From the human T2T-CHM13v2.0 reference genome, Homo sapiens: a stretch of 64,000 nt of DNA. A model generated the notes under the pieces. The model had not been told where the DNA came from. It saw only the letters and a program-made list of their open reading frames with translations, and ran no database searches. The position numbers were made by a program, and so were the translations under genes. Position 1 is the first letter of the stretch, and each line of letters starts with the position of its first letter. Shown here piece after piece: positions 765 to 2,290 of this stretch. Where the stretch lies: NCBI RefSeq assembly GCF_009914755.1, contig NC_060925.1. One strand, 5' to 3'.

Positions 765-902
765 CGTATTAGTTTGCAGGGGTTGCCATAACAAATTACC
801 ACTGTGGCTTCTACAACAGAAACTTATTTTCTCACAATTATGTGGTTTTTTTTTTCTGAGGCTCTTTCCTTGGCTTGTAGGTGGCCATCTTCTCCCTGAG
901 TC
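765..902 (-). mobile_element. MLT1B-like LTR, 3' half
   Basis: Reverse complement gactcagggagaagatggccacctacaagccaagg...ttgttatggcaaccctgcaaactaatac is the MLT1 3' end. Confidence 0.8.
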
Positions 903-2290
903 TTTTTTTTTTTTTTTTTTTTTTTTTTTTTTTTTTTTTTTTTTTAGAATCTGGAGCTTACTTATCATGATTTTTTTTTTTTTTTTTATCATACTTTAAG
1001 TTTTAGGGTACATGTGCACCTTGTGCAGGTTAGTTACATATGTATACATGTGCCATGCTGGTGCGCTGCACCCACTAACTCGTCATCTAGCATTAGGTAT
1101 ATCTCCCAATGCTATCCCTCCCCCCTCCCCCGACCCCACCACAGTCCCCAGAGTATGATATTCCCCTTCCTGTGTCCATGTGATCTCAATGTTCAATTCC
1201 CACCTATGAGTGAGAATATGCGGTGTTTGGTTTTTTGTTCTTGCGATAGTTTACTGAGAATGATGATTTCCAATTTCATCCATGTCCCTACAAAGGACAT
1301 GAACTCACCATTTTTTATGGCTGCATAGTATTCCATGATGTATATGTGCCACATTTTCTTAATCCAGTCTATCATTGTTGGACATTTGGGTTGGTTCCAA
1401 GTCTTTGCTATTGTGAATAATGCCACAATAAACATACGTGTGCATGTGTCTTTATAGCAGCATGATTTATAGTCATTTGGGTATATACCCAGTAATGGGA
1501 TGGCTGGGTCAAATGGTATTTCTAGTTCTAGATCCCTGAGGAATCGCCACACTGACTTCCACAATGGTCGAACCAGTTTACAGTCCCACCAACAGTGTAA
1601 AAGTGTTCCTATTTCTCCGCATCCTCTCCAGCACCTGTTGTTTCCTGACTTTTTAATGATTGCCATTCTAACTAGTGTGAGATGGTATCTCATAGTGGTT
1701 TTGATTTGCATTTCTCTGATGGCCAGTGATGATGAGCATTTTTTCATGTGTTTTTTGGCTGCATAAATGTCTTCTTTTGAGAAGTGTCTGTTCATGTCCT
1801 TCGCCCACTTTTTGATGGGGTTGTTTGTTTTTTTCTTGTAAATTTGTTTGAGTTCATTGTAGATTCTGGATATTAGCCCTTTGTCAGATGAGTAGGTTGC
1901 GAAAATTTTCTCCCATTTTGTAGGTTGCCTGTTCACTCTGATGGTAGTTTCTTTTTCTGTGCAGAAGCTCTTTAGTTTAATTAGATCCCATTTGTCAATT
2001 TTGTCTTTTGTTGCCATTGCTTTTGGTGTTTTGGACAGGAAGTCCTTGCCCATGCCTATGTCCTGAATGGTAATGCCTAGGTTTTCTTCTAGGGTTTTTA
2101 TGGTTTTAGGTCTAACGTTTAAATCTTTAATCCATCTTGAATTGATTTTTGTATAAGGTGTAAGGAAGGGATCCAGTTTCAGCTTCCTACATATGGCTAG
2201 CCAGTTTTCCCAGCACCATTTATTAAATAGGGAATATACACAATAAAATTTATTTAAAAAAATAAAGACCCTATTTAATAAATGGTGCTG
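903..2290 (-). mobile_element. Young 5'-truncated L1 (L1PA2/early L1HS-like) with short 3' transduction and complex 5' junction
   Basis: Uninterrupted ORF2 C-terminus 1193-2053 ending FSLIGGN; near-consensus 3'UTR with GAG at the Ta-diagnostic triplet; T43 (903-945) and T17 (971-987); TSD ctgagtcttt at 896-905 and 2288-2297. Confidence 0.95.

What the first reader, a model, noticed from the sequence alone, without database searches (positions are those of the whole stretch)
896..1000. 25-nt 3' transduction behind a mutated L1 poly(A) signal
Seen, in L1 sense: ...aaagtatGATAAA-A tract, then tcatgataagtaagctccagattct (plus strand 946-970), then A43, then the TSD. The usual AATAAA reads GATAAA here and the 25-mer has no AATAAA. 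Established: L1 read-through carries downstream flank to new sites. Inference: the 25-mer is a barcode for the source L1, and the weakened hexamer may have caused the read-through. The pure 43-nt tract suggests a recent, possibly polymorphic insertion.
Basis: partly seen in the sequence, partly recalled or inferred. Interest (0 to 1): 0.75.

Follow-up and report, generated by a model that had tools for sequence, protein, structure and literature searches.

The report
Old L1 copy with orphan tag
This is an ordinary, several-million-year-old and apparently fixed fragment of the L1 jumping gene whose tail carries 25 extra bases, likely copied from next to a parent L1 that can no longer be found in this genome.

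Summary
The anatomy is real. A 1,245-nt 5'-truncated L1 on the minus strand ends in GATAAA, A17, the 25-mer and A43, all between two exact 10-bp target-site copies (896-905, 2288-2297). The 25-mer has no L1-adjacent match and no sibling in CHM13: at up to 3 mismatches the only other hit is a single-copy site at chr1:158.84 Mb (2 mismatches; 0.04-0.07 expected by chance), a possible empty source site. The copy is not young: it has the GAG triplet (not Ta or pre-Ta) and differs 0.64% from its subclade, with 6 of 6 ORF2 changes non-synonymous. A 1,019-genome table lists no whole-element absence here, only a 62-bp deletion inside the tail. GATAAA does not track with tags: 2 of 54 relatives have it and neither is tagged, while 8 of 9 tagged relatives keep AATAAA. 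Best reading: a short 3' transduction from a lost source (0.62); main rival, a second tiny insertion into the tail (0.17). Known kinds; low interest.

The parts
896..905 (+). Target-site duplication, copy at the L1 3' end (CTGAGTCTTT)
   Evidence: exact 10-nt repeat with 2288-2297
903..945 (-). Terminal poly(A), pure A43, of which 3 A's belong to the TSD
   Evidence: longest pure run at most 23 in 44 non-Ta-type relatives
946..970 (-). 25-nt unique tag, likely a 3' transduction; source not found
   Evidence: only itself and chr1:158,843,918-942 (2 mismatches, no L1 adjacent)
971..987 (-). First A tract (A17), the L1's own tail
985..990 (-). GATAAA variant of the L1 AATAAA hexamer
   Evidence: also in untagged L020, L046 and L035
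988..2232 (-). 5'-truncated L1, 1,245 nt: open ORF2 C-terminal 345 codons (stop at 1195) plus 3' UTR; GAG triplet at 1081-1079; L1PA2-type (label recalled)
960..1021 (+). 62-bp deletion catalogued in human genomes; removes 11 nt of the tag, A17 and the last 34 nt of the L1 with the hexamer
   Evidence: PMC12350158 Suppl. Table 18, row chr1-78120959-DEL-62; limits are my reading of the ID
2233..2269 (+). 37-nt perfect inverted copy of the target flank 2292-2328 (likely fold-back synthesis)
   Evidence: (I1)
2269..2290 (+). 22-nt perfect inverted copy of the first L1 bases 2211-2232, sharing 3 nt with the TSD end (likely twin priming)
   Evidence: (I2)
2288..2297 (+). Target-site duplication, copy at the L1 5' end; nick site TCTTT/A at 2297/2298
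   Evidence: sequence
2292..2460 (+). Older dispersed repeat into whose T-rich end the L1 inserted (old L1M-type 3' end, label recalled)
   Evidence: 39 other places at 73-85% identity among 40 scored candidates

Best explanation
A 5'-truncated L1 of the GAG (pre-L1HS) class sits here between two 10-bp target-site copies, and its tail likely carries a 25-nt 3' transduction from a source L1 that is not in CHM13. Shown: TSD, A17-tag-A43 order, endonuclease-type site TCTTT/A, class, 0.64% divergence, no L1-adjacent donor. Inferred: several million years ago a source L1 was transcribed through its own A tail, cleaved about 25 nt into the flank and polyadenylated. That RNA was copied by target-primed reverse transcription into the T-rich end of an older repeat in an MGC27382 intron. 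The source was then lost, or its flank has diverged or been deleted. The best candidate for its empty site is chr1:158,843,918-942, which is unproven. At the 5' end the TSD overhang likely primed a second copy of the same RNA (22 nt), folded back to copy 37 nt of its own flank, and was joined to the first cDNA through a 3-nt microhomology. GATAAA likely arose after insertion and did not cause the read-through. The element is inert cargo; no function is proposed.
For: The tag is flanked by two A tracts and enclosed by an exact TSD, the operational definition of a partnered 3' transduction in PMC12350158 Methods. Short tags are common: 71% (248/349) of somatic transductions were under 100 bp, and 75 of 349 endpoints lacked a good poly(A) signal 10-30 nt upstream (PMC13009371). 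Truncated reference L1s carrying tags of sources absent from the reference are described there as 'proxy elements'. 9 of 54 relatives show a short stretch between two A runs, and two members of the same subclade (L006, L038) share one tag at different loci, so this subclade did transduce short flanks. The candidate donor L002 has T^AAGA just upstream of the match (endonuclease-type site) and a T run just downstream. Age: GAG triplet, 99/96-supported subclade, tip branch 0.0077, 8 differences in 1,245 nt, 6 of 6 ORF2 changes non-synonymous.
Against: No donor at 0-1 mismatch exists in CHM13, although an empty source site should normally survive. A true donor would show 2 or more mismatches in 25 nt only 4-9% of the time at 1.2-2% divergence, about the same as the chance of such a hit (0.04-0.07). 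Counting the 4 upstream bases there are 3 differences in 29 (P 0.005-0.02). The pure A43 is an outlier for this age class and fits a younger event better. No ape or other human sequence could be examined.
Confidence: 0.62

Rival explanations
1. The 25-mer and its long A tail are a second, younger, extremely truncated retro-insertion (orphan transduction or mRNA end) into the old L1's tail. The endonuclease nicked at TTTT/A at the base of the tail and the A17 is its hidden target-site duplication.
For: Pure A43 against at most 23 in 44 non-Ta-type relatives, while the L1 body is 0.64% diverged. The T17/ATC junction at 987/988 is a TTTT/A site, and A17 is of TSD length (peak 14-16 bp, PMC2912911).
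Against: Needs two events at one spot. A young insert should match its donor exactly, and no such match exists in CHM13. No tag-only variant appears in the held table, but a variant of about 50 bp would probably not be listed there.
Confidence: 0.17
2. One event, but chimeric: reverse transcription started on the poly(A) end of an unrelated RNA (for example a transcript ending at the chr1:158.84 Mb site, which has AATAAG 15 nt before the end of the match), copied 25 nt, and switched to an L1 RNA's A tail.
For: No L1 lies next to the only candidate donor; the nearest L1 3' end found is a 250-nt, 92% fragment about 8 kb upstream. Two-RNA insertions in the same orientation are described in PMC11702581 section 7. 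The 5' junction shows that this event switched templates.
Against: Switching needs A-tail to A-tail realignment with no other homology. The donor match is itself doubtful. Short tags are readily explained by transduction.
Confidence: 0.11
3. The tag is a repair patch, templated from nearby DNA or untemplated, put into the A tract during or after insertion.
For: The 5' junction does hold DNA copied from the flank. The first 13 nt of the tag resemble the flank at about 2379-2391 (12 matches, 1 gap).
Against: That resemblance is not significant: 16 of 202 other 600-nt windows and 80 of 1,000 shuffled tags score as high. The best ungapped match elsewhere in the window has 8 mismatches.
Confidence: 0.1

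Closest known systems
Partnered L1 3' transduction (short class; PMC13009371, PMC12350158, PMC9311842)
   Same: L1 3' end, A tract, short unique tag, second A tract, TSD; no strong poly(A) signal needed; lengths from 7 nt reported (PMC9311842 abstract).
   Different: No mapped donor and no source element; old GAG-class carrier rather than Ta.
'Proxy' elements (PMC13009371 section 10)
   Same: Truncated reference L1 holding a tag whose source is absent from the reference.
   Different: There the source is a living polymorphic L1HS with new offspring; here no offspring or source is known.
L1PA2 / non-Ta L1 subfamilies (name recalled; ages in PMC3286893 Table 2)
   Same: GAG instead of ACA/ACG; 97.9-98.7% identical to the 29 nearest copies; divergence like its subclade (0.56-1.04%).
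   Different: No subfamily consensus was on hand, so the exact subfamily is not assigned; it shares one 3' UTR base with ACG/ACA copies (window 1132).
Twin-primed 5' inversion with local templated rearrangement (PMC11702581; PMC2912911)
   Same: Inverted L1 piece primed from the TSD end with 3-nt microhomology; extra DNA copied from next to the site.
   Different: The inverted piece is only 22 nt and wholly duplicates the forward piece (1-10 bp overlaps are usual in PMC11702581); it is followed by a 37-nt fold-back of the flank; it is a germline, apparently fixed example.

Membership tests
L1 insertion by target-primed reverse transcription | Target-site duplication | tested here: met
   10-bp exact, 896-905 and 2288-2297
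L1 insertion by target-primed reverse transcription | Poly(A) tail and T-rich endonuclease site | tested here: met
   A43; TCTTT/A at 2297/2298, a near match to TTTT/AA
Partnered 3' transduction | Non-L1 sequence between two poly(A) tracts inside the TSD | tested here: met
   A17, 25-mer, A43; definition
Partnered 3' transduction | Tag maps to a donor locus in the genome | tested here: inconclusive
   One 2-mismatch hit; chance 0.04-0.07; true-donor probability 0.04-0.09; gapped matches and mitochondrial DNA not searched
Partnered 3' transduction | Donor lies directly 3' of a full-length L1, or sibling inserts share the tag | tested here: not met
   None in CHM13; apes and other haplotypes not testable
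L1HS Ta / pre-Ta | ACA or ACG at the 3' UTR diagnostic triplet | tested here: not met
   GAG; definition
Polymorphic reference L1 | Empty allele seen in humans | tested here: not met
   No ~1.4-kb deletion among the sorted chr1 DEL rows between 77,726,019 and 79,670,514; only a 62-bp tail deletion. File cut when stored; stated MEI sensitivity 84.3-90.6%
Human-specific L1 | Empty orthologous site in chimpanzee | not testable with these tools
   No ape genome held; supplements of PMC2912911 gave no row at recalled lift-over coordinates
Twin-primed 5' inversion | Inverted L1 segment abutting the TSD with microhomology | tested here: met
   22 nt, 100%, 3 nt shared with the TSD end

The most novel reading that the evidence does not exclude
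The tag is the only surviving record of a vanished L1PA2-class source element that once sat at chr1:158,843,94x near a pentraxin pseudogene: a 'ghost source' whose empty site can be named from a 25-nt barcode. The same insertion preserves in the germline a twin-priming plus fold-back junction in which both cDNA copies stop within 3 nt of each other, pointing to a broken RNA end, not polymerase drop-off, as the cause of 5' truncation.
Probability: 0.22. Interest if true: 0.38.

Novelty: new member of a known kind. Interest (0 to 1): 0.2.

Why it matters
As one more short transduction on an old L1 it matters little. It is a useful caution: a long pure A tail and a variant hexamer did not mean recent or causal here. 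If the chr1:158.84 Mb site proved to be the empty source site, it would show that tags on fixed L1PA2-age copies can map source elements lost from the human lineage. The 5' junction is a clean natural example of the end-processing models drawn from cultured cells.

Tried and rejected
Genome search for the 25-mer at up to 2 and 3 mismatches: no L1-adjacent hit, no sibling; reversed-pattern control 0. BLAST-type search with tag plus tails: 2 candidates, the second (L035) an untagged short L1 end with GATAAA; this search did not pick up L002, so it is insensitive. The tag is not within 1.4 kb downstream of any fetched relative (best 9 or more mismatches). A copy sharing two private bases (L069) is an unrelated 90.7% fragment, so no sibling. 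Local templating of the tag: not significant. Exact tag in viral contigs: 0; in the text of the paper library: 0; in the held part of the 1,019-genome supplement: 0. A polymorphic L1 at the candidate donor site: no row at chr1-15884 in the held file. Human-specific status: PMC2912911 supplements gave nothing; the one held supplement of PMC6191304 was listed but not read. The 2003 paper on L1 transduced sequences was not held and is not relied on. Not searched: gapped matches of the tag, mitochondrial DNA (the genome held has 24 contigs), ape genomes, other human haplotypes.

Full report
1. Observation. The structure is as described. In L1 sense (minus strand): L1 3' UTR ending GAT at 988, A17 (987-971), the 25-mer (970-946), A43 (945-903), then the target-site copy. 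The TSD is CTGAGTCTTT at 896-905 and 2288-2297; three A's of the A43 belong to it. The plus-strand nick site TCTTT/A (2297/2298) is close to the TTTT/AA preference (PMC2912911 passage). The tag lies between the TSD copies, so it is not in the empty allele. The target is the T-rich end of an older dispersed repeat (39 other places at 73-85% among 40 scored candidates; the L1M label is recalled). The site is intronic in MGC27382 and antisense to it (hub annotation).

2. The carrier L1. It is 1,245 nt (988-2232) with an open 345-codon ORF2 end. The diagnostic triplet is GAG, not the ACA or ACG that define Ta and pre-Ta (PMC12350158 Methods); calling GAG copies L1PA2-type is recalled. The genome search scored 40 of 7,369 candidates and 29 non-self loci were fetched; the nearest is 98.7% identical. 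In a tree of 30 rows it groups with L004, L006, L007 and L022 (99/96) on a tip branch of 0.0077. Against six subclade members it has 8 differences (0.64%; the others 0.56-1.04%), and all 6 in ORF2 change the amino acid, as expected of neutral decay after insertion. With a recalled rate of 0.1-0.15% per million years this gives roughly 4-6 My, with wide error; PMC3286893 Table 2 gives 7.6 My for L1PA2 and 1.9-2.7 My for Ta. Whether it is human-specific was not testable.

3. Polymorphism. Supplementary Table 18 of PMC12350158 (1,019 long-read genomes) lists, among the sorted chr1 deletion rows between 77,726,019 and 79,670,514, only chr1-78120959-DEL-62. I read this as loss of window 960-1021: 11 nt of the tag, A17 and the last 34 nt of the L1. 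CTT occurs at 957-959 and 1020-1022, 63 apart, so a microhomology deletion is plausible but one base off. No ~1.4-kb absence is listed, so the element looks fixed. Limits: the file was cut when stored, holds only events classed as Alu, L1 or SVA, gives no frequency, and the paper's main supplementary PDF was too large to read; stated MEI sensitivity is 84.3-90.6%.

4. The tag. At up to 3 mismatches CHM13 has two matches: itself and chr1:158,843,918-942 with 2 mismatches; control 0. That site (L002) is single-copy with no L1 beside it. In 30 kb fetched around it, the only match to the L1 3' fragment is a 250-nt, 92% piece about 8 kb upstream. It lies about 1.3 kb upstream of a pentraxin-like pseudogene (recognised from recall). 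Markov models give 0.04-0.07 chance hits at 2 or fewer mismatches and 0.9-1.4 at 3 or fewer; a true donor would differ at 2 or more of 25 with probability 0.04-0.09 at 1.2-2% divergence. The mismatch count is therefore uninformative. In favour: T^AAGA just upstream, a T run just downstream, and an exact copy of the tag's first 10 nt 11 bases further upstream. Against: the G in AAGA is a third difference. I give it about one chance in four. No fetched relative has the tag within 1.4 kb downstream. It is absent from viral contigs, from paper text and from the held supplement. A local template is not supported. Gapped matches and mitochondrial DNA were not searched.

5. The hexamer. I scored 54 distinct relatives, after dropping 4 self loci, 4 duplicates, the old L066 fragment and the short L035. 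Of these, 9 have a short stretch between two A runs of 8 or more, and 2 have GATAAA. The sets do not overlap, and 8 of the 9 keep AATAAA. These 9 were not checked against their own TSDs, but three pairs recur at different loci (L006/L038, L052/L053, roughly L018/L022), which marks them as inherited tags. L035 is a third GATAAA end without a tag. PMC13009371 section 9 reports active sources with both strong and weak internal signals, and endpoints without a strong signal. The sample is small and chosen for likeness to the query, so this shows lack of support, not proof of no effect.

6. The A43. Among 44 relatives of GAG or unassigned type the longest pure run is 23; only an ACA copy (34) and a GCG copy (25) reach 25. 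This is the one fact that favours a younger event. It is explained either by tract expansion or by a second insertion into the tail with A17 as hidden TSD.

7. In L1 sense: flank, TSD, a 22-nt perfect inverted copy of the first L1 bases sharing 3 nt (CAG) with the TSD end, a 37-nt perfect inverted copy of the flank and part of the TSD, then the forward L1. In 6 of 6 longer relatives the L1 bases before the breakpoint end in ATT, as does the inverted flank copy: a 3-nt microhomology. The strand folds as a hairpin at -33.5 kcal/mol, z -9.75, 0 of 200 shuffles as good. Inferred order: the TSD overhang primes on the L1 RNA (twin priming); the new end GGG folds onto CTC in the TSD (two pairs and a wobble, read from the sequence) and copies its own strand; the end is joined to the first cDNA. 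Both L1 copies stop within 3 nt of each other, which suggests a physical RNA end. PMC11702581 describes twin priming, inversions at the reciprocal end (3 cases) and locally templated additions (3 cases) in cultured cells, so the class is known.

8. Verdict. A short transduction from a lost source is the best reading (0.62). The barcode cannot be read in this genome, the causal role of GATAAA is unsupported, and the insertion is old and apparently fixed. New member of known kinds; interest 0.2.

Papers seen: PMC12350158 (abstract, passages, sections 47 and 53, supplement 2 parts 1 and 124 and two searches of it); PMC13009371 (abstract, sections 7, 9, 10); PMC11702581 (passages, section 7); PMC2912911 (passages, one supplement search); PMC3286893 (passages, tables); PMC9311842 (abstract and outline); PMC6191304 (search listing and supplement list only). 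That this locus is not discussed in print rests only and the supplement searches; unseen supplements and RepeatMasker or dbRIP tables may list it.

Noticed in passing
window 2211-2328: Complex 5' junction of the same L1: 22-nt inverted L1 copy plus 37-nt inverted flank copy, forming a perfect 37-bp hairpin with a 22-nt spacer.
   Followed up: yes
window 960-1021: Catalogued 62-bp deletion (PMC12350158 Table 18) that removes the L1 hexamer, A17 and part of the tag; frequency not seen.
   Followed up: partly
L038 (chr3:144.76 Mb) and L006/L039 (chr18:40.38 Mb): Two copies of the same L1 subclade share an 18-nt tag (one difference) between A tracts: a real transduction family; source not sought.
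   Followed up: no
L018 (chr12:96.30 Mb) and L022 (chr6:45.50 Mb); L052 and L053 (chr15): Further pairs of L1 copies with like short tags in their tails; L018 and L022 fall in different clades of the tree, which is unexplained.
   Followed up: no
L002:1501-1537: The candidate donor has an exact copy of the tag's first 10 nt 11 bases upstream of its last 15 nt, an old imperfect tandem duplication; pentraxin-like pseudogene about 1.3 kb downstream (identity recalled).
   Followed up: partly
window 2379-2414: 17-nt tandem duplication (94%, spacing 19) in the old repeat right of the insertion.
   Followed up: no
window about 760-900: The left flank looks like a decayed MLT1-type LTR (recalled likeness, not tested), so the site may be a three-layer nest of repeats.
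   Followed up: no
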